Of a stretch of 43,482 nt of DNA, positions 1 through 43,482 are shown piece by piece. The DNA lies in assembly GCA_043771035.1 (NCBI GenBank), contig JAYVHQ010000017.1, forward strand, positions 1 to 43,482. Reading direction: 5' to 3'. Source of the stretch: Candidatus Kaiserbacteria bacterium. Its GTDB lineage: Bacteria > Patescibacteriota > Minisyncoccia > Phycocordibacterales > UBA918. The notes beneath the pieces were generated by a model that saw only the letters and a program-made list of their open reading frames with translations, made no database searches and was not told where the DNA came from. A program made the translations under genes and the position numbers. The first letter of the stretch is position 1. Each line of letters begins with the position of its first letter.

Positions 1-935
1 TATAGTTTGATTGCAAAACTAAACATCCACAACAAACTTATAATAACTAAAAGAGCAATTACTATCTGTTTAAGCGGGATTATCCAAAAAAATACCGTAC
101 TGGTTACAAAATTTTTTTCATTTTCTCCGAAGCCTAACGTAGCTACCGCTTTAAACCTGCCGATATCATACAATGACGATTCACCAGTCCAGCTGAAATT
201 GAACTTACGAATACTGTTTGGTAAAACATTACCAAAATGTGTTTGATAATTTATCGGAATGATTCCCCTCTGCGCACCCCACATGTTGGTGATAGTGATA
301 TCTCCTTGTGGCTGAAGATGTACATTGCCCGTATTTTGAAAACGAATCTCAAACTCTACTTCTGGCTTAGGTACAATAGAATCTACAGTGGTAAACTCAC
401 GAATATTACCCACTTCTACAATATCACCAGATATTCGAACAAACAGCAAAGAAGTGACAAATTGGGCTGTTTGCACCTGAGGACTAGTGGCCGAAGTTTG
501 CGGTGGTTTTGTGCCAATTAAAATAGCGGCGTAATGACCCCCGGGAGCAGCCGTAGCTGAAACAGTGACCGAAAAAGGGATGCTCACTGTTTGTCCAGGC
601 GGTATGACAAAAGCGCTACCAGAAAGTGCCACCCATTCAGCTAAAGTTTGCCCCTTTGTTTCATCTGAAAATATAGGAACCATGGCTCCTTGACCATTCT
701 CACCTGACGGAGCGAAATTTACGACTTGGGGATAGACAGTAATTTCGTAATCGTTTACGTTTATAACACGAACTTCACTTGACCAAGACTGACTTGGATT
801 GGCAGACATTTGAAAGAGAGTTGGCGACACGCTCAAAGTTTGAGCCTGCATATCTTGAGCTCTCACTACAAGACCGTGTGTAAAAAGTACACACAACAAT
901 ACAAAGAAATAACTATTTTTTAAGATTGATATCAT
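1..935 (-). CDS. Surface-complex anchor-like protein, paralog 1 (3' end cut by the window edge). It has a signal peptide, two beta-sandwich-like domains and a C-terminal TM helix, an architecture like CscA (DUF916/DUF3324-type).
   Basis: The minus-strand frame is open from ATG 935..933 to position 3, with no stop before the window edge, so it is absent from the supplied track. I checked the frame by hand at three places (935, ~569-513, 32-3). The translation starts MISILKNSYFFVLLCVLFTHGLVVRAQD (signal peptide). It continues ...GQTVSIPFSVTVSATAAPGGHYAAILIG... and ...EFEIRFQNTGNVHLQPQGDITITN.... It ends in the hydrophobic helix IVIALLVIISLLWMFSFAI at the edge. The start overlaps the upstream gene end by 23 nt. 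Confidence 0.6.
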   Translation of the reverse strand, partial: MISILKNSYFFVLLCVLFTHGLVVRAQDMQAQTLSVSPTLFQMSANPSQSWSSEVRVINVNDYEITVYPQVVNFAPSGENGQGAMVPIFSDETKGQTLAEWVALSGSAFVIPPGQTVSIPFSVTVSATAAPGGHYAAILIGTKPPQTSATSPQVQTAQFVTSLLFVRISGDIVEVGNIREFTTVDSIVPKPEVEFEIRFQNTGNVHLQPQGDITITNMWGAQRGIIPINYQTHFGNVLPNSIRKFNFSWTGESSLYDIGRFKAVATLGFGENEKNFVTSTVFFWIIPLKQIVIALLVIISLLWMFSFAIKL

Positions 936-1890: not shown

Positions 1891-1897
1891 ACAGTAA

Positions 1898-4800
1898 TTA
1901 ATAGGTTGGGACAGCCAGGTAAACAATTTCTGTTTCATATATACCGGCAGGTTGCAGCGAACTGACACTGACTCTATACAGGATATCATGAACATCACTC
2001 GCGGGAAGAGAGCTGTACATGACTTCTTGTGGCGTAGTCTGCAAGCCAGCATAGCTGTCAAGTGGCGCAAAGCGTGTGGAACCCAAGCCCAAAGTAGCGT
2101 CAGTAGTATGATAACCAATACAACCCGTCGAACTAGCCACACATCCGAGAGCCCAGCTCGATGGCGCAAGATTTGTAGCTGCAATTGAAGGAATTGCGGT
2201 ACCGTAACTATTAAGCAACTGCTGCCGAGCATAACTTAACACCCGATACCCTTCGGTCGCATTAGTGTTAATTTGTATTCTGTGCGCTGAATACCAAGGA
2301 GTATCAAGAGGGATGAAGCCAAAATTAATCGCAGCTGGTGTTGAGGTGGCTGTTGTAACCACTCCAGCAGTAGTCGTTCCTGATGGCAAACCGGTAATGG
2401 TGAGAGATAATTTTGCTGTTTCAGAAACTAAACTAGGATTAACACTGCCGACTTTGAGCGGTACCTGGACTTCATTTAAGGTATCATATAACCTAAAGTA
2501 ATAAACGACTCCTACCCTAGCGATACCCTGTTTCAGATAAAAGGCATACTCTCGATTAGCACTCGGCAGATGGGTATCGCCCAGCGCAAATGTTCCTGAG
2601 GTATTATGAGTACCACAGCCAATACCAGCACTACTGGCACAGCTATTAGCATCAGACAACACTTTTGTGGTGATAGTGGCATTATCAAGTCCGCCACCAA
2701 GCGCGTAACACCAGGTAGAAGTGGCGACACAACTTGAGGTGGACGTTACATCTCGGGGATTGGTGAAGTTTGGATTTTCATCAAACTGCACTTTAAATTT
2801 GACATTCTGTCCCCGTACATTTTTTGCTTCACCGACCGTTACACGCAATGCCAGATTATTACCGTTTTGTATTTCTACTGGCGCATTGTTTTCTACAGCT
2901 AGTGGCCCGCTGGGTGTTTCGCTGGCAGAATCATCATACCAACGCCAATTTTGTGTTTGCGGAGTAAAACCAGCCGTTCTGATTTGCGGATAATTAAAGT
3001 AGCCATCAAGCGTAGTCCCGTCGGCTCTCACCATTTTAAAACAATAGACACTGCGCTCAAGGGCGCCGTTGTGTTCAAGTTGCCAGTCGAATTCAATTTC
3101 TTCGGTGGGATTGGCACCATAGGGGTTAGCGGGGGCGGGATTTTCTTCTACATAACTTCCCGCTCTGTCTGACACAGACAGTAACAAGTCCCCAAAAACC
3201 GGCGGGTTGGTTGAGAGAGGTACGCCGTTTGTTGTACCGGTAGCATTATAGCCGCGCCAAACTGCTGCTCCGCCAGCAGCACCGACGTCGGTCCACGGCG
3301 AGACCGCGGTACAGGAAGTAACGCGTAGACCATACTGTAATTTAAAATCATACAACCCAGCCGGCAGGTTGGCATTTGTTACTCTCAGTGACATGCGCAG
3401 ACGCACCCGGTCGGCTTCGCCGAGCGGCTGATCGGTAATTGATAAAGGCGTATTTTCACCTAGATTACTTACTCCTGGCGGCCAGGGATCAGTTGGTAAG
3501 AGAGAATTATTATCAGCGTATATTCGATAATAATTTTGTCGGACAGCTAAACCGTTAATTGGCCACTCGACAATTTCTGTGCGGTACGTGAGCAAAGCAG
3601 TTGATGCTTCACTCCTCCATACAACATAGGACGAAGTAGATGTGATACTCAGTCCGGTCATCGCTAACGGAAAGTTGGAGTTTGCACCAACAACTCGTGC
3701 TGTCCCCCAAATTGAGGCATTGGTGACGGTTTCCAGTGGCGAGAAAATCGGTACGGCCAAGACGACTGGTTCAGTGCCGTCAGTGGTATTTCCATTACTT
3801 CTTTGCACCTTCATTGCGCCAGCACTGGTTTGCTGATTCTCAATCACCCAAGCTACTGAAGTGTGTGAAGCCGGAGTAGTTGCGGCATCTTCTAATTTAA
3901 ACGACAACGACCCGATACTCGAGAGCCAGACTTCGTGTCCAAAGTTATTGACGTTACCAAGGGCATTGATTCTTTTTTGGGTATGAATAAAGGTTCGCGC
4001 CAAACTGTTTACGGGTGAAATAGATTCTGTTTCAATGACGGTACTTGAGGAATAGGTATGTTCTACCCGCTCTATGTTCCAGTTGATCCCGGTGTACTCT
4101 ACCACTGCGTAACTAACATCGATTATCGCTCCACCAGCACCGCGCTCTAAAAATGGGCGACTGGTAGAACTAATCCACTGCGAAGTGACTGCTCCAGCAT
4201 AGTAAAAGTTACGACCGGCATCTCGATTAGCTATTCCGGTAATAAACACTACTACATCAGCATTATCTGAGACTCCAGGCACGATAAACCCGGTCGAAGA
4301 AGTCGCGATGCTCGCCAAAGAAGTAGTAGCCACTGACAGAACCTTCATCTCATTGTCAGTCCCCGCTTCGGCGATAAACTCAATAATTTCCCAGTAAACT
4401 TGCGTGTTGTTAATAGGTGATGGTGGTCGAGCAATAGTAAAGCTCGTTGCTAAATTGCCAGGATTAGAAATATAAGCAGTCACATCTTTAGCATTTTGTG
4501 CCCCGCCAAGGGTATTTTTACCAGCCCCAGTTATTTGCGTATTCGTAATACGGACAAAGGCGCGCGTCGAGGATGCAGGAGCTACATAGTCTACTCCGGC
4601 AGTGAGTGTCAAGCCGGTCCCTGTGACATTTGACGTACCCCGTTGTATTTTAAAATCACGTTTTGGAGCAGTTTTTATTTCTGCATAATTATCATACTGA
4701 CCAAGTTCAGTACTGGCGTCAGTTACCCGGAAACAATAAATAGTATTGTTGGCAGTAATCCCCGTGGAAGTGATACTGTACTCCAACTCAGTAAAACCCG

Positions 4801-9765: not shown

Positions 9766-10524
9766 TTATTTTGTAAAGTAATCTGAAAGTAAAATAGAAA
9801 AATCCCGGAACGTCATTTGCCCATCATTATTAAAATCAAATTTTTGCTGGCGACTGGTCCAGTTGGCCATAAAAGAACTAATATCACGCAGTGATACCTC
9901 ACCATCGCCATCTATGTCCGTCACCACAGCAAAACCTACACTCCCCTCCAAAGTAGTGCCATCAGCTGGTTTTGCACCCAAAGCAAACACCTGAGTAGTA
10001 ATTTTCGCTCGCGATATATCGGCGTTGATAGCAGTACCTTTCCCATCTCCCGCTAAAAGCTTTACCTCACCGGCAAAAAATTGTGCGCTACCAGCTGTTT
10101 TAGCCTTAACATTAATCGTAGCAATTTTATGCTCACCCACAAATCCTCTTTTAAAAGTACCACCACGCAAAATAACTTTATCGTTACTCACAAAGGGCTC
10201 TTCTGTCCACAAGGTAATTACCGAATTACCTTTATCGATACCTAAAACTTCGACCTGACCTAAAGGATAGGCCAAACTGATGTCAACAGCGTTCACGGGA
10301 GCATCAGCAAAGACAAATACATCAAGTGAAAATGTCGAACCAATTTCAACATTAGTCTCACTAGACACTACTTTTATATAGGACCCCTTCGTACCAGAGA
10401 CGGCCGCAATGCTCGCAATCGCCGCAAAGACAAACAAAAAAGAAAAGGCATAGCGAACAGTCGGAGAGTTTTTTAAGCCCAGAGTTGGAAAAACTTTGAT
10501 TAAAGCTCTCCGTACTAAACTCAT
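9766..10524 (-). CDS. Secreted or anchored protein with a cohesin-like domain and a C-terminal type-I-dockerin-like module.
   Basis: The N-terminal hydrophobic segment is YAFSFLFVFAAIASIAAVSG. The cohesin-like core (about 10014..10389) reads VEIGSTFSLDVFVFADAPVNAVDISLAYPLGQVEVLGIDKGNSVITLW...KIATINVKAKTAGSAQFF..LLAGDGKGT. The dockerin-like duplicated Ca-loop (9769..9927) reads DIDGDGEVSLRDISSFMANW ... DFNNDGQMTFRDFSILLSDY. The ATGA start/stop overlap with 10521..11198 indicates translational coupling. Confidence 0.8.
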   Translation of the reverse strand: MSLVRRALIKVFPTLGLKNSPTVRYAFSFLFVFAAIASIAAVSGTKGSYIKVVSSETNVEIGSTFSLDVFVFADAPVNAVDISLAYPLGQVEVLGIDKGNSVITLWTEEPFVSNDKVILRGGTFKRGFVGEHKIATINVKAKTAGSAQFFAGEVKLLAGDGKGTAINADISRAKITTQVFALGAKPADGTTLEGSVGFAVVTDIDGDGEVSLRDISSFMANWTSRQQKFDFNNDGQMTFRDFSILLSDYFTK

Positions 10525-11198: not shown

Positions 11199-11206
11199 AT
11201 CAGGAA

Positions 11207-12958: not shown

Positions 12959-12967
12959 AGGAAATGA

Positions 12968-16504: not shown

Positions 16505-16523
16505 TAGAAGTAATTCAGTTACA

Positions 16524-16974: not shown

Positions 16975-17099
16975 TAAAACTTTATAAAATTAGTGCAATT
17001 CGAGGCAGGCAAGGAAAATCTTGCGAGCCGTACTTATTGTACGGTGAGTAAGATTTTACCGCAGCCTAACGAAGAAGTGTGCAATTTTATAAAGTTTTA
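16975..17099 (+). repeat. E-element copy E1, a 125-bp unit with 17-bp perfect terminal inverted repeats and a conserved internal hairpin. It is either MITE-like or a structured RNA.
   Basis: The ends read TAAAACTTTATAAAATT ... AATTTTATAAAGTTTTA. The internal part reads GCAAGGAAAATCTTGCGAGCCGTAC-TTATT-GTACGGTGAGTAAGATTTTACCGCAGC. The right end supplies part of the TAA stop (17097-17099) of the dockerin gene. Confidence 0.75.
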
Positions 17100-22902: not shown

Positions 22903-22936
22903 CATAAACATACAACCTTGCGGTTGTTGTTATGCT
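22901..22936 (-). terminator. Hairpin with a GCAA tetraloop overlapping the ATPase stop codon. It may be an intra-operon attenuator or stabiliser.
   Basis: The minus strand reads AGCATAA-CA-ACAACC-GCAA-GGTTGT-ATGT-TTATGCT, followed by TTGTTCCCGATTTGC. That is two 6-bp helices with an internal loop. The U-tract is weak. Confidence 0.3.
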
Positions 22937-38200: not shown

Positions 38201-41200
38201 GGCTTCTGTACCCTCACACGCTACGGCAAGCAAATCACCTGAAGTAGTCTCGTACTCAATATCAAACCGGCGTTTGATAGCGTCTGTCGCTTCTGTATAA
38301 ATTTCATACATGTTGTTCCATGACTCAGACACACCATCATAAATTTGAATGTTGATATCAAGATCTGTCCCCAAGGTCGCCAGCGCATACTCAGGTCTCG
38401 TAGGCGAAGCATCTAGTCTAGTCCAGCGTATTTGCGCTCCTACAGTATCAGCAGAAGCAGCATTGTTCCAACTAGTACCATTCCACAAACGAAATTGTGG
38501 CGCCTGTCCTGTTCCCTCACCGTAAGCTGCCATCACCCCACTGACTACCGAAGTAATTTGCGCTCCGCCGAGAGTTGTTTCAATATCCTGATTAGTGTTA
38601 GTTAAAAACTGTTCACCCGTTGTCTGATGCCAAACGGAAACTAAAATACTAGTATCGACCGTAATACTTTCTGGTTGAGAATATTGTGACCAAGCGTTTG
38701 TTCCGAGCGGATCACGGGCCCGAACACGCCACCAGTAGGTACTACCGTTTGTCAGCGATGAGTTTAAAGTGTAACGTACGACATTACCAGAAACAAACGG
38801 TGTGATATCCGAACTAGAGGCTGTGTTTACAAATCCAGCATTGCTACCAGAATTGAATGTCGACGATGACACAAAGTCAGCCGTGCTTGAATATTGAAAT
38901 TCATATTCCAAACTATCACTCTGTGGGTCAGTGGTTGAAAATGTAAAAGCTGGTGTGGTCGTTGCCACTTTAGCGTTATCAAAAGGCGTTACATGAATCG
39001 GTATCTCAATAGTTTGACCCCAAATCAATGTCATCGACAAGAGACGTGGTAAGGTCGGTGTCCCAGAGAATACTGAGGTGATTCGCAACTCGTTATAAAG
39101 AGTTGTATCAAGCGTGCCAAGAGCAACTGGTGAAGCAGTTAGACCAGTACTGTTTCCAGCAATTAAACTATCTGGCACTAAAGCAAAGTTCTCACCACTA
39201 ACCCGATATTCCACATAATGTCGAATAGTTCCTGAAGTGACATTTTGCGCAAACGACAACTCACCCCAGGCGTTTCCAACATCTCGGTCATCGTAATCAA
39301 TAACTGTAGTGGTAGTTGTACCAGCGGTAAACCCGGTGTTAATTCCTACATCATTGGAGCTGGTACCAGCCGTTACATCGAGTAGGTTCCCCGTTGTGAA
39401 TTGCTCACCCGTTGTCTGGAACCAGGTAGTAATCAAAGTACCAGAAGCTATCGTAAAGCTACTAGGGACTGACCAATCACTATATGTACCAGAGCCGTTA
39501 TCATCTTTTGCCCGCACTCGCCACCAATACGTATTTCCCGTTGTCAGAGCGCTACTCGGAATAAACCGGATAGTTTGTCCAGTAGTATAGAGACCACGCT
39601 CAGACGGTGACGCTAAGTTAGTAAAGAGCGCAAAGTTTGCATTTGACTCATTTGTTAAGTCAGGTGAACCAAAAGCGTAATCCGTGTCAACCATGATTTC
39701 ATAAGACACTTCATCACTCACTTCATCTTGGGCTGCAAATTCAAACCAGGGTGTCGTTGAAGAAAATTGTTCGTTGTCAAAGGGGGCTGACAATACAGGG
39801 ACCAGTGGTGGTGAATTAGTAATTAAACGAGGAAATTGCTGGTAGTCACTTAACGTTGAACCATCGGTGTATACCATGCGGAAGCAGTAATTAGTATTTG
39901 GCAAAGCAGCATTATTTTGAATAGTAAAATCCCATTCAGCTGCATTGCCGACCGGCAGTGCTTTGCGGTTACTATTTGTAGGATTACCTTCTTCATAGGT
40001 TTCTGCATTATCTGAACCAGTAAGTACCGTGCTAGGTAAGGCTGCCCCATCACCAACAAACTCTTCCGCCGACAATGCATAGAAACCAGTTGGATTAGAC
40101 TGATTGGTCCGTTCAGTTGAAATGAACCCCGCCGCCCGAGCCACTGACGCAATTCTGAATTCGTCAATTCGCCCCCGATGGAAAGCACCACCAGCTGGAT
40201 CGGTACTACCGATGGCTAAACCTGTTAATGTTGGAGGATTATCTGAGTTAGTGATACTCGTAATAAGGGCGCCATCGAGATAAATACCCATAAAAGCTCC
40301 AGCTCCTCCAGCTGACACTAATCCAATATGCGTCCACTTATCACGGTAGGCGGTATAGTTGGCACTAATACGACCAGGTACCGCACAACAGGTACCGTAA
40401 TCCCAATAAATTGTGTTATCGCTCCACGGCGCATGAGTCGCCAGACGCTCAGATCCTGCAGCCGTAAATCCAAACAAGTTAGAATTCTGTACTTCGCTAG
40501 TATTTACTCTAGACCACGCGGTCACAGTGACGGGTGCCGAGCTCCAGGCAAAGGCTGCGTTAGTAAAGCGATCATTTACTCCATCAAAAGTAACACCTTT
40601 ACCGACTGGACTGCTGGTACTATTACCAGCCGTCATTCCGCCGACTGATGTCAAATTTCGCCCATTAACGGTGCTATCAGTCATGGTGGCACTTGGATCA
40701 GTACCTAAGTGATACACCGCTTGATAGCCGTTGGTCCAAACATTATTTCGACCGTAGGTAGCAGTCGGGCCGTAGCCACTCGCGCCCGAGTTACCATAGT
40801 AGATAAAGAAATCTGTGTCAGTAGTAGAAGCGAGCGTCGCTTTAAAATGAAGCTCACCGATTTTAGCTATCGTATCAATTGATACAAGTTCAAATGGAAC
40901 TTCAGTTAACCCATTGCTAGTAGTAATTCTAATATCGTCACCATCAGACTGGACACTAGCAAAGAAACTGTCAGGTAAATCGTCGAGGTTAACGTACACA
41001 GGGAAATCGGTTTGGGCACCATTAACCAGCGTACCTTTGATAGTAATTTTTGATCGACGTAACCAGGAAGCACTCAACCAATCTGCTCCCACAATTGCGT
41101 TTGCGTAGCCTCGCCACAAGGCGGTAGAGCTACCGACTGCCCCAATATCAGTCCACTCTGTAATGGCACTACAAGAGAGACCGTCGGCGTACTGAAGTTT

Positions 41201-43482
41201 AAAAGCCGCGGTTGATGTAGGGAGAGTCACATTAGCGCCTTCGAGCGATAATCTAAGGCGAATAACATCATTAATGTTGACAGATTCTGATGAACTAAGT
41301 GGTGTATTCTCAGCAATATCAGTCACTCCAAGGGGCCACGGGTCAATTGGTGTAAGGAAACTGCCATTGTCATACCAGCGGTACGTACTTTGAATTAGCT
41401 TTGGCTTTCTGAGCCATGAAACTGACCAATCATCCAAACTAGCACTCGCTGAACCAAGTGTGGTTAAGGTTGCCTCAAGACAGATTTGGCTATAGGTAGT
41501 CGTTGACAGGCCCGTTAATACTAACGGCATTGACCCGGTTCCGAAACCAGCACTGTTTCCCAGTAGCGCTCCATCGGGTACGTACGAATCGCATGTACTA
41601 GTACTCGTGTATCTAAGTCGGATTAGTACATCAGTCCCAAAAGGTTCTGTTGAAGCAAAACTTAAATCTCCCCAGGTAGGCTGATTAGGCACAGCTGAGA
41701 AGTTTATCGGTGTACTCCTTACGACACCTTGCGTAAACTGAAAACGTTTGGCAGCCATCTCAAAAGTTTCAAAAGGTATACCAATGATAGATGAGGGGTT
41801 CGGTGCAATTGTTTGTTTTATTGCCCAACTCGTCCCGTTCCAGTAGGAAGATTCGAGCTCGTCACCAGCAGCCACATCATCATGCCACATTGAAACAATA
41901 GTGCCGTCCCCTGCTCGCTCAGTTTGACCCCAAAATAAACCAGCTGTACCAATCCCCGTGATTGACTGTTCAGCTGACCAGGATGAACTGGCGTAATTAA
42001 ATACTGAATAGCGTGCTCCTACCGTATCCGAATACGACATTAATATATTACCTGTCCGTCCAGCGGTAGTTTCAAATTCACAGTCAATCGGCCGAGCTGC
42101 TTCGGAGTTACCAGCAATATCTTGTTCAAAAAATGTGCTCCAAATACCGCCGTTCCACCTCACCACCCCGATATCAGCATCAGCATCTATGTAACAAAGT
42201 GCCATGTTATCAGAATTAGGATCAGCTGCCAGGTTACCGAACTCAAAATCATCACCGAGCGCTTGCGTTGCATTCACTGTAAAGCTTGTACCATTCCAGG
42301 TGGTATAAATAAGATTGTTGGCAGCACCATTGGTCACGGCAATAATTGCTTGATCACCAGAAGATTCATATTTTAAACCAATCCCCGCCCGACCTTCTTG
42401 CCCCACCTGTCCAGCACCAATCACTCGGTTTGCTATCCAAGCATTTCCATTCCACACTAACGCTTCGTACTGCAAAGTAGCGCCACCATCTCGTACCACC
42501 AAGATTAGCTCGTCCGAAGCTGGGTCAGACGCAATTTCTAAATAGTTACACACACTAACTGAACTTACTGTAATAGATGTCGTAGCGCTCCATGAACTTC
42601 CATTCCAGATACGGTACACCGGACCAGCCCCGTTACTACAAGAGACCGCCATTGCATCACCAGACATACTTTCGTACCCCACAGCCAGACCTCGTCTAGT
42701 AACGTTGGAAACTGTACTACTAAGCAACGTTCGATTGCCCCACGAACTACTACTTGCGCTGTAGACTTGGGCGTAGGCCGCACTGGATTGATCAATCGTA
42801 AGCATCATGTACTCATTACGACTTACACTGGCTGCCGTTCTAACCCAGTTTATAGTACCACCGACAGCCACTGCGCTTTGCTCAGCGTCCCAGCTTATCC
42901 CATTCCATAAACGGTATTTAGGAGTAGCACTGGTACCGTCACCGTAGCCGACAATAATTTCCGTACTTACTGCCGCATCAACGGTTACACTATTATTTAC
43001 TCCAGGAGAAACTGCACCAATGAGGGTATTGCTTTTAAACTGTCCATTAAGGTTTTGATACCAATTCGGAACAATATCACTAAGGTTAACGGTCAGACTC
43101 TGGGTGGTGGAGTAATCACCAAATTCTCCCGAACCATTTACATCTTTCGCCCGCACTCGCCAGTAGTAAGTGGTAAGGTCTAGCAGTACGTCAGCTGGTT
43201 GCAATTGAAAGCGAACTTTATTGGCTTCAATAAACGGTGAAGTGTCAGTTGAAGAAGCGGTGTTTGAAAATCCAGCATTAGCACCTGACACACGCACAGT
43301 AGCAGTTGCAAAATCAGAAGTGGTTGAAATAGAAAATTCATACTGGATATCAGATGTACCATCAGGATCATTACTCTGGAAATCAAAGTATGGTGTAGTA
43401 GAAGCAAATCTTATGTTATCAAAAGGTACACTAAACATCGACGGTGCTGGTGCTCTGAAGTTGAGACTGGCTTTTTTCCACA
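26207..43482 (-). CDS. Giant surface (adhesin-like) protein, 5'-truncated by the window edge. At least 5,757 codons lie inside the window.
   Basis: Track ORF 26207..43438 starts at an internal Met. The same frame stays open for the remaining 14 codons to the window end (WKKASLNFRAPAPS-MFSVPFDN). The first residues lack a signal peptide and sit in the middle of a repeated linker+PFDN module. The protein is a mosaic of recognisable extracellular modules, listed as sub-features. Confidence 0.9.
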   Translation of the reverse strand, partial: WKKASLNFRAPAPSMFSVPFDNIRFASTTPYFDFQSNDPDGTSDIQYEFSISTTSDFATATVRVSGANAGFSNTASSTDTSPFIEANKVRFQLQPADVLLDLTTYYWRVRAKDVNGSGEFGDYSTTQSLTVNLSDIVPNWYQNLNGQFKSNTLIGAVSPGVNNSVTVDAAVSTEIIVGYGDGTSATPKYRLWNGISWDAEQSAVAVGGTINWVRTAASVSRNEYMMLTIDQSSAAYAQVYSASSSSWGNRTLLSSTVSNVTRRGLAVGYESMSGDAMAVSCSNGAGPVYRIWNGSSWSATTSITVSSVSVCNYLEIASDPASDELILVVRDGGATLQYEALVWNGNAWIANRVIGAGQVGQEGRAGIGLKYESSGDQAIIAVTNGAANNLIYTTWNGTSFTVNATQALGDDFEFGNLAADPNSDNMALCYIDADADIGVVRWNGGIWSTFFEQDIAGNSEAARPIDCEFETTAGRTGNILMSYSDTVGARYSVFNYASSSWSAEQSITGIGTAGLFWGQTERAGDGTIVSMWHDDVAAGDELESSYWNGTSWAIKQTIAPNPSSIIGIPFETFEMAAKRFQFTQGVVRSTPINFSAVPNQPTWGDLSFASTEPFGTDVLIRLRYTSTSTCDSYVPDGALLGNSAGFGTGSMPLVLTGLSTTTYSQICLEATLTTLGSASASLDDWSVSWLRKPKLIQSTYRWYDNGSFLTPIDPWPLGVTDIAENTPLSSSESVNINDVIRLRLSLEGANVTLPTSTAAFKLQYADGLSCSAITEWTDIGAVGSSTALWRGYANAIVGADWLSASWLRRSKITIKGTLVNGAQTDFPVYVNLDDLPDSFFASVQSDGDDIRITTSNGLTEVPFELVSIDTIAKIGELHFKATLASTTDTDFFIYYGNSGASGYGPTATYGRNNVWTNGYQAVYHLGTDPSATMTDSTVNGRNLTSVGGMTAGNSTSSPVGKGVTFDGVNDRFTNAAFAWSSAPVTVTAWSRVNTSEVQNSNLFGFTAAGSERLATHAPWSDNTIYWDYGTCCAVPGRISANYTAYRDKWTHIGLVSAGGAGAFMGIYLDGALITSITNSDNPPTLTGLAIGSTDPAGGAFHRGRIDEFRIASVARAAGFISTERTNQSNPTGFYALSAEEFVGDGAALPSTVLTGSDNAETYEEGNPTNSNRKALPVGNAAEWDFTIQNNAALPNTNYCFRMVYTDGSTLSDYQQFPRLITNSPPLVPVLSAPFDNEQFSSTTPWFEFAAQDEVSDEVSYEIMVDTDYAFGSPDLTNESNANFALFTNLASPSERGLYTTGQTIRFIPSSALTTGNTYWWRVRAKDDNGSGTYSDWSVPSSFTIASGTLITTWFQTTGEQFTTGNLLDVTAGTSSNDVGINTGFTAGTTTTTVIDYDDRDVGNAWGELSFAQNVTSGTIRHYVEYRVSGENFALVPDSLIAGNSTGLTASPVALGTLDTTLYNELRITSVFSGTPTLPRLLSMTLIWGQTIEIPIHVTPFDNAKVATTTPAFTFSTTDPQSDSLEYEFQYSSTADFVSSSTFNSGSNAGFVNTASSSDITPFVSGNVVRYTLNSSLTNGSTYWWRVRARDPLGTNAWSQYSQPESITVDTSILVSVWHQTTGEQFLTNTNQDIETTLGGAQITSVVSGVMAAYGEGTGQAPQFRLWNGTSWNNAASADTVGAQIRWTRLDASPTRPEYALATLGTDLDINIQIYDGVSESWNNMYEIYTEATDAIKRRFDIEYETTSGDLLAVACEGTEARFSIWNGTVWSASTSLPLSNVNNCEWVELAADPVSDEIIAVFRHTNTGATDYEALVWNGSSFSNSLTFGNINENSNEGIALNYEASGGQALAVVSNDTLASFIFSSWNGSSWTTPTSSAISNDFEWGSLKRDVGTDNLIFCYIDDVIDIGVKTWNGSAWSASTLMTIDGNSKLGQPVDCEYQTLKGVDGDVIIPYSDTIVARYQQYTTATGTFSGEFSLDTVNDSWSLQTVRGGDGTIHTFAFDDGSAPDRYSTSQWNGNAWSTLFNFSTSPSITAQPYNGSITAAAQIYPNFTNGTIRSTPIDFADGSGPRWERISWNDSTPAASDVRYRLYYQTTPGVFVLVPDVALAGNSTGFTSSPVSIAALDRTVYSVLKLEAELLCNSGTCPTVQDWSLEWSQGINVSGTAYEYDASTTVATGTVAVAVNGILQSGKTAVISGAGTWTIPNVTAFVGDAITVFIDGVNDSDEAVGVTTYDGVGDVTQMELNKRHLTFGSTDNATSSNALFGAFDSSDDEDVFFTVSGSSTLALCVEAACADAKLKIKTTAVYMPGANISVHDIVNQGRFLPETNTVRVSGSWLNTGTFIPSLSTVIFSATTSSETITSTSSATSTFFHNVTFGETAGSATWSANKPLDITGTLVVDFGTFARGTTTINLEQNLRIGTGGFLTGLGTTTFDGSGTHIWTDNSASSTNIGFAVIDGAAKTITLGGNVAAESVTIGADDTLNASGSGFNINVYKTWTNNNSFIPQSGTVTFVGTSTGTIARGTSAFNNVTFSGIGANWSFTTATLAVNNNFTIAMGTVTLPTGTTTIGGNFANVGGTFLHNNGEVRMTSAATGKTIIQKGSAFLNAFYDLVFAGSGAWSFAESAATTTRNLNIQSGTVTLASSTLTVGGDFTVTGAGAFNHNSGELVLLVQNTNSLRANGSAINNLRIRGLAASSWYNDSWSARQPIVINSAQVPTTVTDFPVYVNLANLPTTFFSSVNASGTDIRVTTSDGLTEVPYELVAIDTVAKTGELHFKAPTVSSSTNTTFYIYYGNGTASAYSATSTFGRNNVWTNGFEAVYHLGTNPTSVLVDSTVNGRNLTSAGGMGAGNSVAGIIGNSIDFDGVNDTLTNGTYSWTSTPVTVTAWSNVAVSEVKVASMFGFNAGAGDDRFAAHAPYSDNTLYWDYGNCCGATGRITAGYTAYRDKWTHVGLVSAGGAGAFMGIYLDGAQITTGAASDDPAVITGFAIGAAGSGGGGGFHDGRVDEFRLASVARTFGWIATEENNQSSSTAFYSVGAAQSRTVRVFTDTNTTILGNYVSELGGDATFPTGVLGVAGSFTNVASFGANNGTVRFNSTGGAETIAVGSSTFATLEFNSASGIFTVTQNATATVAINLTSASAFTLQSGLTLAALGTFSNAATASSTTWTGSTLSLSGVDAAINLKSHSGDAYATILTNGDTDMTMWNSTATTYSTASTSSIYSADHAAVDGDLNIYGDYVRTTGTEYWSFATDFDGAALTGTTSRQVDVRIASSSKVGLTSASLNLVGGASASTTIDAISGTFTLSATTSTITAQNFTVTGIDASGLRLNASTTLAIFQDGFFNVVPGHTGITISSTTVAQNPSAQYFGIGFATSSVGGGTNVTLTGTTSSFVWFRLGTGNLYGEAYDGGDANPGSVRWDDSSNSITISGVVYADDGITPLSSPTCDGTTPNVRVVVNNGTFTASTTCAAGTGTYTLAGVNYIGDPKITVYLNTNGGVNGSVVTKTPSGNITNMNIYAGRVITRHQDIAPLTIADMTSFDNDDDSDIQFVATTTGVTALRVLAPNSLFVFATTTFAPGGNVTLHGNASTSAIEGTLQLGTAATFTASGTETHTLAGRLLLATTSVLTSASSTFIFNASTTGKSITSPNTVTFNAVQFTGVGGGWNITAPLIVNGNMDVATGTVTGTSNVTLTNGSLSGEGTLSFGSGTTTINRTNTLGGTRAWTFNNLVLGSGLVAGTTTRASVATTTILGRLTISPAHFLVAGNSNWDLAGAGTVFVEGGTLQEDTSTFRYSGAGAQVLSTTYYNLDINAGAGTPTYTPTGVGIAVTNNLTIGGTAATTFDVNSSDPALLVGGSVSIRSNGTFSASNIATTSVGSNWTNFGTFISNGGLVAMVGAGSNTVAAGNGSFGSLLINNGAGNFTMSQNATTTVALTLLNHTNFTQASGTTMAIGGAFTNTLGGAATTFASSTLSFFGGGTKNINAKTVGDVYATLFVASSTNVKMWNSSASTYAALGSIYSQDHAAVDGTLNIYGTYTVVTGNDYWSYATDFDGVALGGGARKVDVSLASGSSASYAGGSLEVIGTSTASTTITNQGAGTYGLTLSGTASTTWDTVLVRNMNASGVVFTGTPLVANFSRTDHLIGVNGGTGITVNGTVIDANQAKNFTNNVFASSSGVTGATNVTATGTSISSWRFTNHTGLLSGEAYDNDPAGDPGYVVWDDSAALITVSGNVYSDEGVTVSPVCNGVTQNILLRVAGLTTYTASCNAGTGAYSIPNVAFSPADTLSVYIDNNIRKAVTVSADPVSSISNMNLYENRVIVRHENTSPLSIADMAIWDSSDDGDILFTAVDAGIDTLSLPADQKLLIWSGKTFEPAGNVTVAGGGGGAAQDGTLEAQTNATFRALGTESHTIGGSMIFGTGALFTAGQSTTTFTTTGAGRTIDVNSNTFYNIAFTGAGSWDITDAIFTTSRSFVQSNGAITFGSGTTTIGASFNATAGAFTMGGTALLFTSTTTGNIVRFDDSVVPSVRFQGIGGSWSMADSNATTTGNFRIASGTVTLPSGNLGVGASFENLTGTIVHNTADIIMSATSTASLKASSSNLFAVRFTGVGPFTMSDVNLTLADSLTMATGTLTLATGTLSVGGDFLIASGTVNNASGTVLFNATSVGKTVNFGTNNLYSVVFGSATGGWNFVGNATTTNNFSITGASTFTKEPNTILNVGGVFTNTVGGANTTWATSTLKLSGVSDYTINTKTLGGDVYGTLEIVSPLAIRAWNSSAATTTVLGSASFYSQDHAGVDGSLTIYGNVTIATTTEYWNYANDFDGTVLAGASLRQVNVRMAAGASTTVTTGSLQILGTTATSTTVAALFGGSYGLTVNGGTLNAQYYTMTNLGAGGLTLTGSPTITNLSNGSYILTSAGGSLISVAASVLDANASKVFTNVGFATSSAITGFNVNLTGSTSNAWRFNGSFGNIGGEAFDIDGVTACGSIRFDNSGCLLTQQTHYRWRNDDGGEGATASEWFNTSFDYRQRVRVINSDTSSYASSAIKINVAYDSNMQADFDDLRFTSSDGLTQIPYWIERYTASTDAVVWIRVPNLPASETATTFMYYGSSTAANTSSGATTFAAFDDFEDNNITEYSGDTSLFQTDTAPVYGGTYSLEAQNKSGRTTDGIFRTTMTVSQGQIIRWMQYIDTAGSGDDACTLFGVQSPGVNNNNYAICLQQFGIDRMVIAKNIYDNDSSGTVLASSTVTYATGWYEVEVDWRTNNSMTAYLRTAAGALVATASTTDSSYTTGGVGFTFWFQNGSWDSYTARAKAMIAPTVYFGAEQTDGGATWEKLQNVAGSGVTGVNKRLRFAIENSGLDIVNQTFRLEAAPKGAAPSCEAVPTGNFSAVPNQASCGSSPICMQTSTFVADGDASTDHLASTSGAFAAGKVIESPSNITTALNLNQNKYTELEYVLTPTINATSSYCLRVTNGGTPLDFYNKVAEMNLQFDPVFGAVTLNGGLDINLTPGTTTTVFATGTVTDLNGYADIIAGSSTIYRTGAGPSCTANTNNCYKGDTTSSSSCSFINCAGNTCTLSCRADIYFNAEATDAYILPAVNLYEGEKWSAYLEVRDSSGTYDFESAIAQELITLRAASVNNSINYGSLALGGNTGAANASTTVTNVGNIAFNIEVLGTDLSDGGSSRIPANEQRFATSTFTYSGCTACSVMSSTTPTNLAIGLAKPTAPTPPVVVPIYWGVAVPATGVNSAPHSGINVFTPVSI
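26210..27025 (-). other. Class-2 C-terminal module of the giant ORF, homologous to 19275..20215.
   Basis: See the alignment under 19275..20215. The protein ends ...PIYWGVAVPATGVNSAPHSGINVFTPVSI, with no TM and no LPXTG. Confidence 0.55.
27560..28430 (-). other. DUF2341-like + ConA/LamG-like jelly-roll cassette 3.
   Basis: The DUF2341-type part reads FDYRQRVRVINSDTSSYASSAIKINVAYDSNMQADFDDLRFTSSDGLTQIPYWIERYTASTDAVVWIRVPNLPASETATTFMYYGS. The lectin-like part follows: ...GTYSLEAQNKSG...GWYEVEVDWRTNNSMTAYL. Confidence 0.6.
28500..34370 (-). repeat. Three tandem super-repeats of 2.3-2.4 kb. Each has parallel beta-helix-like T/S/G/N-rich repeats plus an Ig/carboxypeptidase-regulatory-like insert. 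The third is truncated.
   Basis: The landmark IYS(A/Q)DHA(A/G)VDG has Y codons at 33817, 31432 and 29125, giving periods of 2,385 and 2,307 nt. Motifs are collinear in each unit: EYWS(F/Y)ATDFDG, GEAYD..D..PG.V.WDDS, ISG.VY.D.G and I(T/V)RH....PL(T/S)IADM. Confidence 0.85.
34370..35380 (-). other. DUF2341-like + LamG (Laminin_G_3-like) cassette 2.
   Basis: The DUF2341-like part reads WSARQPIVINSAQVPTTVTDFPVYVNLANLPTTFFSSVNASGTDIRVTTSDGLTEVPYELVAIDTVAKTGELHFKA. The LamG-like part reads NNVWTNGFEAVYHLG...VDSTVNGRNLTS...IDFDGVNDTL...YRDKWTHVGLVSAGGAGAFMGIYLDGA...GRVDEFRLASVART. Confidence 0.65.
35400..37030 (-). other. Partial zeroth super-repeat (second half only) plus beta-helix repeats.
   Basis: INVSGTAYEYDAS...TWTIPNVTAFVGDAITVFIDG...MELNKRHLTFGS parallels ITISGVVYADDG...TYTLAGVNYIGDPKITVYLN...MNIYAGRVITRH of the full units. 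Repeats of the type NVTF.G.G..WS follow. Confidence 0.5.
37380..38540 (-). other. WNGxxW beta-propeller 2.
   Basis: About seven blades recur: FRLWNGTSWNNA, FSIWNGTVWSAS, ALVWNGSSFSNS, FSSWNGSSWTTP, VKTWNGSAWSAS and SQWNGNAWSTL, spaced ~50-60 aa apart. Confidence 0.5.
38648..38995 (-). other. FN3-like PFDN module 3.
   Basis: TPFDNAKVATTTPAFTFSTTDPQSDSLEYEFQYSSTADF...STYWWRVRARDPLGTNAWSQYS. Confidence 0.5.
39441..39795 (-). other. FN3-like PFDN module 2.
   Basis: APFDNEQFSSTTPWFEFAAQDEVSDEVSYEIMVDTDYAF...NTYWWRVRAKDDNGSGTYSDWS. Confidence 0.5.
40100..41070 (-). other. DUF2341-like + LamG cassette 1, nested inside a YRW/YCFR module.
   Basis: The DUF2341-like part reads WLRRSKITIKGTLVNGAQTDFPVYVNLDDLPDSFFASVQSDGDDIRITTSNGLTEVPFELVSIDTIAKIGELHFKA. 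The LamG-like part reads NNVWTNGYQAVYHLG...TDSTVNGRNLTS...VTFDGVNDRF...YRDKWTHIGLVSAGGAGAFMGIYLDGA...GRIDEFRIASVARA. Confidence 0.65.
41800..42990 (-). other. WNGxxW beta-propeller 1.
   Basis: Blades recur: YRLWNGISWDAE, YRIWNGSSWSAT, ALVWNGNAWIAN, YTTWNGTSFTVN, VVRWNGGIWSTF, FNYASSSWSAE and SSYWNGTSWAIK. Confidence 0.5.
43085..43438 (-). other. FN3-like PFDN module 1.
   Basis: VPFDNIRFASTTPYFDFQSNDPDGTSDIQYEFSISTTSDF...TTYYWRVRAKDVNGSGEFGDYS. Confidence 0.5.

What the first reader, a model, noticed from the sequence alone, without database searches (positions are those of the whole stretch)
1..43482. The whole window reads as one dedicated cell-surface assembly island whose component logic matches no single described system
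Seen in the sequence: 16 co-oriented genes, most tightly packed (gaps of 1-26 nt or overlaps). The components are these.
- (i) Four secreted proteins (383 aa, 631 aa, 2,053 aa and at least 5,757 aa) lack a TM or LPXTG anchor. Each ends in one of two related beta-rich C-terminal modules.
- (ii) Three paralogous proteins combine a signal peptide, two beta-sandwich-like domains, a C-terminal TM helix and a basic tail. They sit directly 3' of two of the large proteins.
- (iii) There are three cohesin-like domains, two of them on TM-anchored proteins, and two dockerin-like modules.
- (iv) A MacB/FtsX-type ABC pair has an ATPase with an extra ~210-aa domain.
- (v) I see no glycoside hydrolase, sortase, secretin, pilus ATPase or other enzyme.

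Established knowledge: Csc/WxL clusters of Lactobacillales pair WxL-domain proteins with DUF916/DUF3324 TM anchors. Cellulosomes use cohesin-dockerin pairs. MacB/FtsEX/LolCDE ABCs work by mechanotransmission to extracytoplasmic partners rather than by transmembrane transport.

Inference: this island may encode a hybrid scaffold. Giant adhesin-like proteins would be held non-covalently on TM anchors or cohesin scaffolds and possibly be loaded or remodelled by the ABC motor. That would suit an episymbiotic, CPR-like lifestyle.
Basis: partly seen in the sequence, partly recalled or inferred. Interest (0 to 1): 0.85.

Follow-up and report, generated by a model that had tools for sequence, protein, structure and literature searches.

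The report
Pam/WxL-like surface fibre locus of Paceibacteria
The window holds most of a gene cluster kept in the same order across many ultra-small Paceibacteria (CPR) genomes, and it most likely builds and anchors surface fibres or adhesin complexes tipped by giant proteins, using a distant relative of the recently described CPR "Pam" pilus and the Gram-positive WxL/WxLIP systems.

Summary
There are 16 co-oriented genes on the minus strand. Four secreted proteins end in one of two C-terminal module (CTD) types. Three membrane-anchored proteins with tandem Ig-like domains are paralogs. There are three cohesin-like and two dockerin-like modules, and a MacB-type ABC pair.

The cluster is no accident. 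The gene order giant-g02-...-g14 recurs in nearly all of 80 related loci, from species-representative Paceibacteria genomes that are long enough to show it.

The claim that it "matches no described system" is only partly right. The 383-aa protein and the CTD of the 2,053-aa protein are sub-threshold but consistent relatives of the CPR Pam pilin C-terminal domain (NCBIfam NF058581). The anchors fold like E. faecium WxLIP and PapD/FimC chaperones, and their family matches Pfam WxLIP_PGBD (formerly DUF916).

Best reading: an usher-less chaperone/anchor system that works by beta-strand complementation. Giant adhesins would carry acceptor domains, a conserved small subunit would be the likely fibre former, and cohesin-dockerin proteins would link it to the membrane.

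Not shown: polymerisation, any relation between the two CTD types, the fold of either CTD, and the role of the ABC pair.

Verdict: a new variant of a known kind, extending Pam-like systems to Paceibacteria and linking them to WxL clusters. Interest is moderate to high.

The parts
26207..43482 (-). g01, a giant secreted protein of at least 5,757 aa, cut at its N-terminus by the window end. It has two DUF2341 domains and an Ig_Rha78A_N-like domain, and is rich in Thr, Ser, Gly and Ala. It ends in a type-1 CTD (about nt 26210-27130). Proposed role: distal adhesin.
   Evidence: Orthologous giants are 5,842 aa (L087) and 5,638 aa (L088).
24738..26180 (-). g02, 480 aa. It has a signal peptide and repeated fn3-type domains, and no TM helix after the signal peptide.
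   Evidence: Pfam fn3 and Pur_ac_phosph_N; syntenic in 64 of 80 loci.
22930..24252 (-). g03, an ABC ATPase of the MacB/LolD/FtsE type, with a conserved C-terminal extension of about 215 aa that has no known family.
   Evidence: 72-95% identity in relatives.
21468..22676 (-). g04, a MacB-type permease with MacB_PCD and FtsX domains.
   Evidence: present in 74 of 80 loci.
19272..21167 (-). g05, a 631-aa secreted protein. Its type-1 CTD (nt 19275-20207) is shared with the giant.
   Evidence: No Pfam, NCBIfam or PDB sequence match for this CTD.
18214..19179 (-). g06, 321 aa. It has a signal peptide, two beta-sandwich domains, a C-terminal TM helix and a basic tail. It is a WxLIP/PapD-like anchor or chaperone.
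   Evidence: AF2 pLDDT 78. Foldseek hits: WxLIP 9i25_C at E 1.6e-8, plus FimC, CupB2, Caf1M, SafB and RbmA. More than 1,245 homologs.
17097..18212 (-). g07, 371 aa. It has a signal peptide, a conserved N-terminal strand, a DUF4215 Cys-rich repeat, a Gly linker, two Ig domains and a dockerin.
   Evidence: Its C-terminal half is 33-36% identical to 'pilin-NTD...dockerin' proteins of related loci.
14103..15254 (-). g08, 383 aa. It has a signal peptide, a beta-sandwich NTD (about 40-185), a linker of alternating hydrophobic residues (183-201) and a type-2 CTD. It is Pam-pilin-like and the proposed fibre subunit.
12968..13972 (-). g09, 334 aa from M20. It has a signal peptide, a cohesin-like domain, a second domain, a TM helix and a basic tail.
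11207..12958 (-). g10, 583 aa. It has a signal peptide, a cohesin-like domain, Big_13 Ig domains, a TM helix (473-491) and a helical cytoplasmic tail.
10521..11198 (-). g11, 225 aa. It has an N-terminal TM helix and, judged by eye from the sequence, a largely helical remainder. No family was found.
   Evidence: syntenic in 46 of 80 loci.
9766..10524 (-). g12, 252 aa, with a cohesin-like domain and a dockerin-like C-terminus. Possible adaptor.
8143..9651 (-). g13, a 502-aa secreted protein with an acidic, Thr-rich linker and beta-propeller (TolB-like) repeats.
1898..8059 (-). g14, a 2,053-aa secreted protein with a type-2 CTD (nt 1901-2482) homologous to the CTD of g08. Proposed adhesin of the g08 fibre.
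   Evidence: (A2 HMM E 7e-15).
913..1890 (-). g15, 325 aa (start M115 of the listed ORF). It is a WxLIP-like anchor or chaperone and a paralog of g06.
1..935 (-). g16, at least 311 aa, cut by the window start. It is the third WxLIP-like paralog. Its 550-aa ortholog continues with TM1, a cytoplasmic loop, TM2 and a LytR_C domain placed outside the cell by topology.

Best explanation
The window is most of a locus conserved across Paceibacteria that builds non-covalent surface fibres or adhesin complexes by beta-strand complementation. It has no usher, sortase or pilus ATPase.

Sec-secreted subunits end in an acceptor CTD. Type 1 is carried by the giant g01 and by g05. Type 2 is carried by g14 and g08. 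Membrane-tethered tandem-Ig proteins of the WxLIP/PapD kind would capture and hold these CTDs: g06 for type 1, and g15 and g16 for type 2.

The strongly conserved two-domain subunit g08 would polymerise by donating its alternating-hydrophobic linker strand to the CTD of the preceding subunit, as PamA and PamB do. The large proteins would sit distally as adhesins. Proteins bearing cohesin or dockerin domains (g07, g09, g10, g12) would tie the base to the membrane. The MacB-type ABC pair would be an accessory whose role is unresolved.

Shown: the family relationships, the domain architectures, the paralogy and the synteny.

Inferred: strand complementation, polymerisation, subunit order, the anchoring route and any role for the ABC pair.
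For: (1) Synteny. 163 stretches of species-representative genomes encode a g06 relative. In the 80 loci kept, the order giant CTD-g02-g03-g04-g05-g06-g07-g08-g09-g10-g11-g12-g13-g14 holds on one strand wherever the contig reaches. g15 follows in two relatives by locus-tag order, and L086 shows g10-g16.

(2) Pilin link. All 26 g08-family members, and 27 of 32 distant members, hit NCBIfam NF058581 CPR_Pam_pilin_C. The best E-value is 1.5e-10, and some matches cover the whole model, positions 2-148 of 148. g08 has the PamA/B layout. AF2 gives a confident beta-sandwich NTD and a low-confidence CTD. The linker has invariant alternating residues V183, I185, V189, V191, A193, V195, T197 and F201. Conservation peaks at the linker and the CTD strands, as the Pam paper reports for PamA and PamB.

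(3) Chaperone/anchor link. The g06 model (pLDDT 78) hits WxLIP (9i25_C, 9i1y) first, then FimC, CupB2, Caf1M, SafB, DraB and RbmA. g15-family sequences hit Pfam WxLIP_PGBD in 23 of 29 members, and the family profile hits EfmWxLIP1 first among 177,635 PDB sequences. PamC and PamD are described as PapD/FimC-like with a C-terminal TM helix. WxLIP is predicted to insert a beta-hairpin strand into WxL (PMC10599100).

(4) Fusion evidence in relatives. P0450 fuses a WxLIP-like protein to a full pilin. A 703-aa protein joins a pilin NTD and linker to a cohesin and a TM helix (L085). 620- and 625-aa proteins join a pilin NTD and linker to Ig domains and a dockerin, and they sit next to cohesin-TM proteins (L089, L090).

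(5) Pairing of a small and a large protein sharing one CTD with an adjacent anchor occurs twice in the window. This is the WxL-cluster and Pam-operon logic.
Against: - The window's g08 scores only 19.9 bits against NF058581, whose cut-off is 55. The alignment shown covers profile positions 3-44, and a second matched stretch was counted but not displayed. No scanned family member reaches the cut-off.
- No Pfam WxL hit was found.
- AF2 does not predict the CTD of g08 confidently, and Foldseek gives only generic Ig adhesins. The acceptor fold is therefore not shown.
- The type-1 CTD has no detectable relative and no significant similarity to type 2. Extending the model to the giant, g05 and g06 rests on architecture alone.
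- Foldseek TM-scores for g06 are low (0.28-0.41), although the probability is 1.0.
- I found no PamR-like terminator (two FnIII domains plus a TM helix) among the window proteins as characterised by Pfam, NCBIfam and hydropathy scans.
- The Pam system as described needs no ABC transporter.
- No multimer prediction could be run.
Confidence: 0.55

Rival explanations
1. Static WxL-type display, essentially the first reader's model. The small and large CTD proteins are not polymerised. Each is held as a stable non-covalent complex on a TM-anchored WxLIP-like protein, and/or on cohesin scaffolds, as proposed for the Csc/WxL clusters of Lactobacillales.
For: Foldseek's top hit for g06 is WxLIP bound to the long WxL protein, which is a stable complex. 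WxLIP_PGBD hits are and EfmWxLIP1 hits. The triad of small protein, large protein and TM-anchored WxLIP-like protein matches the WxL cluster definition. The anchors are permanently membrane-bound. The g16 ortholog carries a LytR_C domain placed outside the cell by topology, which might fit a fixed anchor.
Against: The CTD family matches the Pam pilin model, not Pfam WxL. g08 is a two-domain protein with a conserved linker like PamA and PamB, whereas small WxL proteins are a bare WxL domain. In relatives, proteins with a pilin NTD and linker but no CTD are fused to a dockerin or to a cohesin plus TM helix. That fits fibre terminators better than 1:1 complexes.
Confidence: 0.27
2. A co-inherited set of unrelated surface proteins plus a housekeeping MacB/Lol/FtsEX-like ABC pair. 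The genes are neighbours and co-regulated but do not form one machine.
For: Several members (g02, g11, g13) have no inferred link to the others. Intergenic gaps of 253-485 nt flank the ABC genes. One related genome lacks g02-g04 yet keeps the rest. The g07-g08 gap is variable and can take in foreign genes.
Against: The order is conserved across Kaiserbacteria, Nomurabacteria and other Paceibacteria. The pairing of shared CTDs with adjacent paralogous anchors is repeated. Domain fusions in relatives link pilin, anchor, cohesin and dockerin.
Confidence: 0.1
3. A cellulosome-like enzyme scaffold built on cohesin-dockerin pairs.
For: Cohesin-like and dockerin-like modules are present.
Against: No glycoside hydrolase, carbohydrate esterase or other catalytic domain appears in any of the 16 proteins. 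The dockerins sit on Ig-type or pilin-like proteins.
Confidence: 0.02

Closest known systems
Pam pilus system of CPR bacteria (PamA/B pilins and PamC/D chaperones; Ca. Mycosynbacter amalyticus; bioRxiv 10.64898/2026.03.03.709456)
   Same: Sec-secreted subunits with a beta-sandwich NTD, a linker and a C-terminal acceptor domain. PapD/FimC-like two-domain proteins with a C-terminal TM helix are encoded next to them. There is no usher or pilus ATPase. The system is CPR-specific. The g08 family hits the curated Pam pilin C-domain model.
   Different: Scores stay below the model's cut-off, so this is a separate subfamily. [quoted passage not shown] Differences in content: adhesins of 2,053 and at least 5,757 aa carry the CTDs; there is a second, unrelated-looking CTD type; cohesin-dockerin proteins replace a PamR-like terminator; and a conserved MacB-type ABC pair sits inside the locus.
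WxL/WxLIP (Csc) clusters of Lactobacillales (PMC10599100; PDB 9i25, 9i1y)
   Same: A small and a large secreted protein share a C-terminal domain and lie next to a protein with a signal peptide, two Ig-like domains and a TM helix. The anchors match WxLIP by fold and weakly by sequence.
   Different: There is no Pfam WxL match and no W-x-L motif pair. The corresponding positions read TYV or WGI. The small protein has an extra NTD. The organisms are CPR, not Firmicutes. Peptidoglycan binding is untested.
Chaperone-usher pili (Pap, Fim, Caf, Saf)
   Same: The anchors have a tandem-Ig chaperone fold (FimC, Caf1M and SafB hits). Adhesins have an N-terminal binding part and a C-terminal pilin-type domain. 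The proposed mechanism is donor-strand complementation.
   Different: There is no usher and no sign of outer-membrane machinery. The chaperone-like proteins are membrane-tethered. No sequence similarity was detected.
Cellulosomal cohesin-dockerin assemblies
   Same: Cohesin-like and dockerin-like modules are present, some on TM-anchored scaffold-like proteins.
   Different: There are no enzymes. The modules are fused to pilin-like or Ig parts. The window's own domains sit at or below Pfam thresholds.
Type VII (MacB, LolCDE, FtsEX) mechanotransmission ABC transporters
   Same: g04 has MacB_PCD plus FtsX. g03 aligns with the ATPases DarD, LolD, MacB and FtsE.
   Different: The ATPase has a conserved extra domain of about 215 aa with no relatives. 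No partner or substrate is known. No link to pili or adhesins has been described for this class.
Other donor-strand fibres of monoderms and archaea (TasA, archaeal bundling pili, Tafi; PMC12337348)
   Same: Fibres assembled by strand donation without an usher. One g08-superfamily member carries a TafC-like N-terminal domain.
   Different: The core subunits show no detectable homology. Those systems are proposed to need no chaperone.

Membership tests
CPR Pam pilus system | The pilin C-terminal domain matches the curated model NF058581 (cut-off 55 bits). | tested here: not met
   g08 scores 19.9 bits, E 6e-4. 26 of 26 and 27 of 32 family members hit the model, best E 1.5e-10, but none was shown to reach 55 bits. 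This supports homology at superfamily level, not membership by the curated cut-off.
CPR Pam pilus system | Pilin architecture: signal peptide, roughly nine-strand beta-sandwich NTD, linker strand, truncated Ig-like CTD. | tested here: inconclusive
   AF2 gives a confident NTD with about 10 strands (pLDDT about 85) and leaves the linker and CTD at pLDDT 25-55. Foldseek matches are generic. The alternating-hydrophobic linker is conserved.
CPR Pam pilus system | PapD/FimC-like two-domain chaperones with a C-terminal TM helix, encoded in the same operon as the pilins. | tested here: met
   The g06 model and its Foldseek hits. g15 and g16 are paralogs. Adjacency to the CTD proteins.
CPR Pam pilus system | Filament assembly by donor-strand exchange. 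| not testable with these tools
   No multimer prediction or experiment was available.
CPR Pam pilus system | A PamR-like terminator: an N-terminal strand, two FnIII domains and a C-terminal TM helix. | tested here: not met
   g02 has fn3 domains but no TM helix after its signal peptide. The TM-anchored candidates g09 and g10 carry cohesin-like domains instead.
WxL/WxLIP (Csc) cluster | A WxL domain at the C-terminus of at least two proteins. | tested here: not met
   No WxL family hit in the window proteins at E<=0.01. None in 32 type-2 family members or 30 type-1 sequences at E<=1.
WxL/WxLIP (Csc) cluster | WxLIP: DUF916 (PF06030, WxLIP_PGBD), DUF3324 and a TM helix. | tested here: inconclusive
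   PF06030 is hit by 23 of 29 g15-family members, best E 1.1e-5. The window's g15 scores 15.8 bits against a cut-off of 27.3. No DUF3324 hit was found. The fold and the TM helix match the WxLIP structures.
WxL/WxLIP (Csc) cluster | Cluster logic: one WxLIP plus a small and a large protein that share the C-terminal domain. | tested here: met
   By analogy, twice: g01 and g05 with g06; g08 and g14 with g15 and g16.
Chaperone-usher pili | An outer-membrane usher. | tested here: not met
   No usher or secretin family in any protein.
Cellulosome | Dockerin-bearing enzymes assembled on cohesin scaffoldins. | tested here: not met
   Cohesin and dockerin are present at family level, but there is no catalytic domain.
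MacB-type (type VII) ABC transporter | An ABC_tran ATPase plus a permease with MacB_PCD between TM1 and TM2 and a C-terminal FtsX domain. | tested here: met
   Pfam: ABC_tran 110.9 bits, MacB_PCD 68.5 bits, FtsX 61.3 bits. NCBIfam alignments to MacB and LolC/E.

The most novel reading that the evidence does not exclude
WxL clusters of Firmicutes, Pam pili of Saccharimonadia and this Paceibacteria island would all be branches of one ancient monoderm 'tethered-chaperone' donor-strand superfamily. In Paceibacteria it would have grown into a locus of about 55-60 kb with three modules. That locus would build fibres tipped by adhesins of 2,000 to nearly 6,000 aa and fix them to the membrane through cohesin-dockerin joints. 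A dedicated MacB-type ABC motor would drive or edit assembly, making it an energy-coupled, usher-free pilus pathway.
Probability: 0.25. Interest if true: 0.85.

Novelty: new variant of a known kind. Interest (0 to 1): 0.62.

Why it matters
Paceibacteria (the Parcubacteria group) are among the largest CPR lineages, and few are cultured. How they attach to hosts is essentially unknown. This locus is widespread: 163 stretches of species-representative genomes encode a g06 relative, the g08 family has 2,098 clusters at 50% identity, and gene order is strongly conserved. That makes it a prime candidate for their host-contact apparatus.

If the model holds, three things follow:
- The newly found Pam pilus principle extends beyond the classes where the Pam paper found it most prevalent, Saccharimonadia and Microgenomatia.
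- It would tie to the long-enigmatic WxL/WxLIP clusters of Gram-positive bacteria, suggesting that both work by strand complementation on a membrane-tethered chaperone.
- Giant adhesins, cohesin-dockerin joints and a MacB-type ABC would be new parts of such systems.

It also gives concrete, testable protein pairs for structure prediction, and targets for cryo-ET and proteomics of enrichments.

Tried and rejected
- Pfam and NCBIfam on all window proteins gave no WxL, DUF3324, Laminin_G_3 or BNR hit.
- Single-sequence and profile searches of PDB sequences with g08, g06, A1, A2, A3 and A7 gave nothing useful. PamA and PamB (25PZ, 25QA) did not appear, so they are absent from the copy or too distant.
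- Foldseek with the g08 model returned only generic Ig adhesins, because the CTD is low-confidence.
- hhalign of the type-1 against the type-2 CTD gave a probability of 1-2%. Only a short shared I-x-(Y/F)-G-x-L motif and a collinear motif order emerged, so relatedness is unproven.
- I considered that g13's mature N-terminus (AVPEIINLAVDANL) might be a donor strand. I rejected this because the segment is not conserved in homologs.
- Promoter and terminator scans were no better than shuffles and did not define operon limits.
- The window has no tRNA and no Rfam family.
- The search for related loci with single proteins (g15, and the giant's N-terminus) found no relatives. I used alignments, homolog look-ups and stepping along a relative's giant gene instead.
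- The g03 C-terminal extension has no PDB sequence relative.
- The cellulosome reading is rejected for lack of enzymes.
Full report
**What is in the window.** All substantial ORFs lie on the minus strand. The largest is open to the window end and encodes at least 5,757 aa. I name the genes g01 to g16 in transcription order.
- g01: the giant, 26207-43482.
- g02: 480 aa.
- g03: 440 aa.
- g04: 402 aa.
- g05: 631 aa.
- g06: 321 aa.
- g07: 371 aa.
- g08: 383 aa.
- g09: 334 aa from M20.
- g10: 583 aa.
- g11: 225 aa.
- g12: 252 aa.
- g13: 502 aa.
- g14: 2,053 aa.
- g15: 325 aa. Its true start is M115 of the listed 439-aa ORF, 7 nt after the stop of g14.
- g16: a gene that the ORF listing cannot list because it runs off the window start. 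It begins at ATG 935 and encodes at least 311 aa.

The intergenic gaps are 26, 485, 253, 300, 92, 1, 1842, 130, 9, 8, -4, 114, 83, 7 and -23 nt, so about half the junctions are tight. The 1.8-kb g07-g08 gap holds a plus-strand ORF (15828-16400) with no family match and no counterpart in 80 related loci. The window has no tRNA or Rfam family.

**Domain content.** Pfam and NCBIfam give the following.
- g01: two DUF2341 domains and an Ig_Rha78A_N-like domain.
- g02: fn3-type domains.
- g03: ABC_tran, aligning with DarD, LolD, MacB and FtsE over residues about 6-241 of 440.
- g04: MacB_PCD plus FtsX.
- g07: a DUF4215 Cys-rich repeat, Big_6 and Dockerin_1 (24.1 bits, cut-off 22.9).
- g10: Big_13.
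- g12: Dockerin_1 at 22.1 bits.
- g13: weak beta-propeller (TolB-like) repeats.

No WxL, DUF3324, Cohesin, Laminin_G_3, BNR, sortase, secretin, glycoside hydrolase or pilus ATPase family appeared at E<=0.01. A hydropathy scan and a motif search show that the four large or small secreted proteins have N-terminal signal-like segments, no C-terminal TM helix and no terminal LPXTG.

**Paralogy.** All-against-all BLASTP links these pairs and groups:
- The giant's C-terminus (5493-5753) with g05 (328-622), 30% identity. I call this the type-1 CTD.
- g08 (182-383) with g14 (1869-2053), 31.5% identity. I call this the type-2 CTD.
- The N-terminal domains of g09, g10 and g12.
- The dockerins of g07 and g12.

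The g15 and g06 family profiles align over 262 columns at hhalign probability 98%, E 1.6e-13. g16 matches the g15-family HMM at E 1.2e-42. The three 'anchors' are therefore true paralogs. They sit after g05 (g06) and after g14 (g15, g16).

The two CTD types could not be related to each other. hhalign gave a probability of 1-2% and only a short shared motif. The type-1 CTD has no match in Pfam, NCBIfam or PDB sequences.

**Not chance: conservation.**
- g08 has more than 1,845 homologous 90% clusters. The top 120 are 62-100% identical and mostly 380-385 aa long.
- g06 has more than 1,245 clusters, the listed ones at 65-100% identity.
- An exhaustive profile search finds 2,098 clusters at 50% identity for the g08/g14-CTD superfamily.
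- A scan of species-representative genomes found 163 stretches encoding a g06 relative.
- In the 80 loci kept (titles: Kaiserbacteria, Nomurabacteria, Paceibacteria, Parcubacteria), tblastn shows the same order and strand, from the giant CTD through g02-g13 to the N-terminus of g14, wherever the contig extends.
- The ABC genes are the most conserved, mostly at 72-95% identity.
- g15 lies at the expected position in two relatives by locus-tag order.
- L086 shows g10 through g16 followed by housekeeping genes, which marks the 3' boundary.

The closest relatives (85-89% identity for g06) are labelled Patescibacteria group and Kaiserbacteria (lineage).

**Link to known systems: the subunits.** NCBIfam NF058581, 'CPR_Pam_pilin_C', hits g08 weakly (E 6e-4, 19.9 bits, cut-off 55). 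The hit is systematic. All 26 aligned family members match (best E 6.4e-7). So do 27 of 32 distant superfamily members (best E 1.5e-10), some over the whole model, positions 2-148 of 148.

The model comes from the Pam pilus of Ca. Mycosynbacter amalyticus (bioRxiv 10.64898/2026.03.03.709456). Its pilins have a beta-sandwich NTD, a linker strand donated to the next subunit, and a truncated Ig-like CTD. They are assembled by PamC and PamD, which are PapD/FimC-like chaperones that carry a C-terminal TM helix. There is no usher.

g08 fits this layout:
- AF2 predicts a confident NTD (residues about 40-185, pLDDT about 85).
- It leaves the linker and CTD at pLDDT 25-55. That is compatible with, but does not prove, a fold that needs a partner strand.
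- The linker has invariant alternating residues V183, I185, V189, V191, A193, V195, T197 and F201.
- Conservation peaks at the mature N-terminus, the linker and the CTD strands. This resembles the pattern the Pam authors report.

Foldseek with this model was uninformative for the CTD.

**Link to known systems: the anchors.** The AF2 model of g06 (pLDDT 78) shows a signal helix, two beta-sandwich domains and a long C-terminal TM helix. Foldseek against the PDB ranks 'WxLIP from E. faecium locus A bound to long WxL' (9i25_C, E 1.6e-8) first. It also returns 9i1y, FimC, CupB2, Caf1M, SafB, DraB and RbmA. Global TM-scores are low (0.28-0.41), probably because of inter-domain angles and the TM helix.

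Two independent results agree. First, 23 of 29 g15-family members hit Pfam PF06030 WxLIP_PGBD, the former DUF916 (best E 1.1e-5; the window's g15 scores 0.015). Second, the g15-family profile's best hits among 177,635 PDB sequences are EfmWxLIP1 (E 0.03).

The WxL literature defines a cluster as a small WxL protein, a large WxL protein and a WxLIP with a TM helix. It predicts that a WxLIP beta-hairpin strand inserts into WxL (PMC10599100). The window repeats that triad twice. The Pam preprint does not mention WxL, Paceibacteria, ABC transporters or adhesins.

**Cohesin-dockerin parts and evidence from relatives.** The shared N-terminal domain of g09, g10 and g12 is cohesin-like at family level. 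17 of 29 members hit Pfam Cohesin (best E 3.9e-10), and the eight best of nine PDB profile hits are cohesins.

Related loci contain informative fusions.
- In L085, from a distant lineage, a 703-aa protein joins a signal peptide, a pilin NTD, a linker, a cohesin and a TM helix. P0450 joins a WxLIP-like protein to a complete pilin. A 996-aa protein carries the type-2 CTD. A separate WxLIP-like TM protein and a 392-aa pilin lie nearby.
- Upstream of the giant gene in L089 and L090 lies a third module. L090 has a 378-aa pilin paralog. Both have a WxLIP-like protein, split over two reading frames in L089. Both have a 620- or 625-aa protein made of a pilin NTD, a linker, a Gly-rich spacer, two Ig domains and a dockerin; its C-terminal half is 33-36% identical to g07. 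Both have a g10-like cohesin-TM protein.

These fusions suggest that cohesin-dockerin joints tie the base of the fibre to the membrane. They also show that the island extends beyond the window. The orthologous giants are 5,842 and 5,638 aa, so the window's copy is probably nearly complete. The g16 ortholog (550 aa) continues past the TM helix into a second TM helix and a LytR_C domain placed outside the cell by topology.

**Mechanism proposed.**

Shown: the family relations, architectures, paralogy, synteny and fusions.

Inferred:
- The secreted subunits are captured at the membrane by the tethered tandem-Ig proteins through strand complementation.
- g08 polymerises through linker-to-CTD donor-strand exchange.
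- g14, and by analogy the giant with g05 and g06, are distal adhesins that carry an acceptor domain, like FimH or PapG, or PamT with a large passenger.
- Subunits that bear a dockerin, or are fused to a cohesin, terminate the fibre and anchor it.

The ABC pair is the least understood part. It is of the MacB type and carries a conserved unknown ATPase extension of about 215 aa. It is syntenic in 70-74 of 80 loci. It is largely deleted in one genome that keeps the rest (L068), and it is not seen in L085.

**Rivals.** A static WxL-like display without polymerisation remains plausible (0.27). Mere co-location of unrelated surface genes is unlikely given the synteny and fusions (0.10). A cellulosome is excluded for lack of enzymes (0.02).

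**Novelty and limits.** The core principle is known from Pam and from WxL/WxLIP. This looks like a distinct, sub-threshold subfamily in another CPR class, with giant adhesins, a second CTD type, cohesin-dockerin links and an ABC pair. I call it a new variant of a known kind.

Main gaps:
- No multimer modelling was possible.
- Neither CTD has a confident structure.
- The type-1 module is assigned by analogy only.

Noticed in passing
window 15828-16400 (+), with a hairpin at 16523-16546 (+): A plus-strand ORF of 190 aa lies in the 1.8-kb g07-g08 gap, followed by a GC-rich terminator-like hairpin. It has no Pfam or NCBIfam match and no homolog in 80 related loci. An ENA gene call on an overlapping contig (L001, 8320-8997) gives 225 aa, which suggests a frame difference. 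The g07-g08 gap ranges from 107 to 3,873 nt among relatives, so it looks like an insertion hot spot between two transcription units.
   Followed up: partly
L085 10001-12001 (protein P0450): A single 666-aa ORF joins a WxLIP-like anchor (residues 30-315) to a complete g08-like pilin (313-666). The TM helix of the anchor coincides with the signal peptide of the pilin. It is either a natural fusion or a lost stop codon. Either way it links the two families.
   Followed up: partly
L085 3491-5602: A 703-aa protein has a signal peptide, a pilin-like NTD and linker, a cohesin-like domain (A5 HMM E 3e-23) and a C-terminal TM helix. That is the architecture expected of a fibre terminator or membrane anchor. 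Type IV pilin-like genes and a two-component system lie just upstream.
   Followed up: partly
L089 1-7750 and L090 1218-7953, upstream of the giant gene: A third module precedes the giant in two relatives. L090 has a g08-like pilin. Both have a WxLIP-like protein, which appears split over two reading frames in L089. Both have a 620- or 625-aa protein made of a pilin NTD, Ig domains and a dockerin, and a g10-like cohesin-TM protein. L089 also has an FGE-sulfatase-like ORF and an Hsp20-like ORF, identified by eye only. The island therefore probably extends upstream of the window.
   Followed up: partly
L068 7668-8063: In Paceibacterota MAG-855, g02, g03 and most of g04 are missing. Only the last 80 codons of g04 remain between the giant and g05, and the rest of the locus is intact. 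This is a natural variant without the ABC pair, or an assembly artefact.
   Followed up: partly
L086 10956-12608, the ortholog of window g16 (1-935): The full-length g16 ortholog is 550 aa. Its WxLIP-like ectodomain is followed by TM1, a basic cytoplasmic loop, TM2 and a LytR_C (PF13399) domain placed outside the cell by topology. The window cuts the gene at TM1.
   Followed up: yes
proteins P0406, P0429, P0440 and others of alignment A7: Members of the g08 superfamily carry varied N-terminal passenger domains ahead of the pilin module. P0429 and P0440 have a choice-of-anchor B domain. P0406 has a region similar to the haloarchaeal Tafi tip protein TafC (E 4e-11). Pfam also reports LVIVD, Laminin_G_3, Flg_new, Y_Y_Y and WxLIP_PGBD in one to two members each.
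   Followed up: partly
window 9400-9651 (g13 N-terminus) and its homologs in L006-L046: g13 homologs share a conserved motif ahead of and within the signal anchor: LYRxVF...SFxLQPxxRxYA(S/N)E. The mature N-terminal region is acidic, low in complexity and variable. I do not know the meaning of the conserved pre-signal motif.
   Followed up: no
window 17097-18212 (g07): The first residues of mature g07 (GVATTTLTLSIC) are about 80% conserved across 75 homologs, and they precede a Cys-rich DUF4215 repeat. This could be an N-terminal donor strand analogous to the PamR N-terminal strand. Untested.
   Followed up: partly
record titles of loci L009, L011, L015, L016 and others: Many TPA-assembled MAGs that carry this locus are titled 'uncultured Candidatus Saccharibacteria'. 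Their loci group by similarity with Kaiserbacteria, Nomurabacteria and Paceibacteria records. The labels may be generic, and I did not check them.
   Followed up: no
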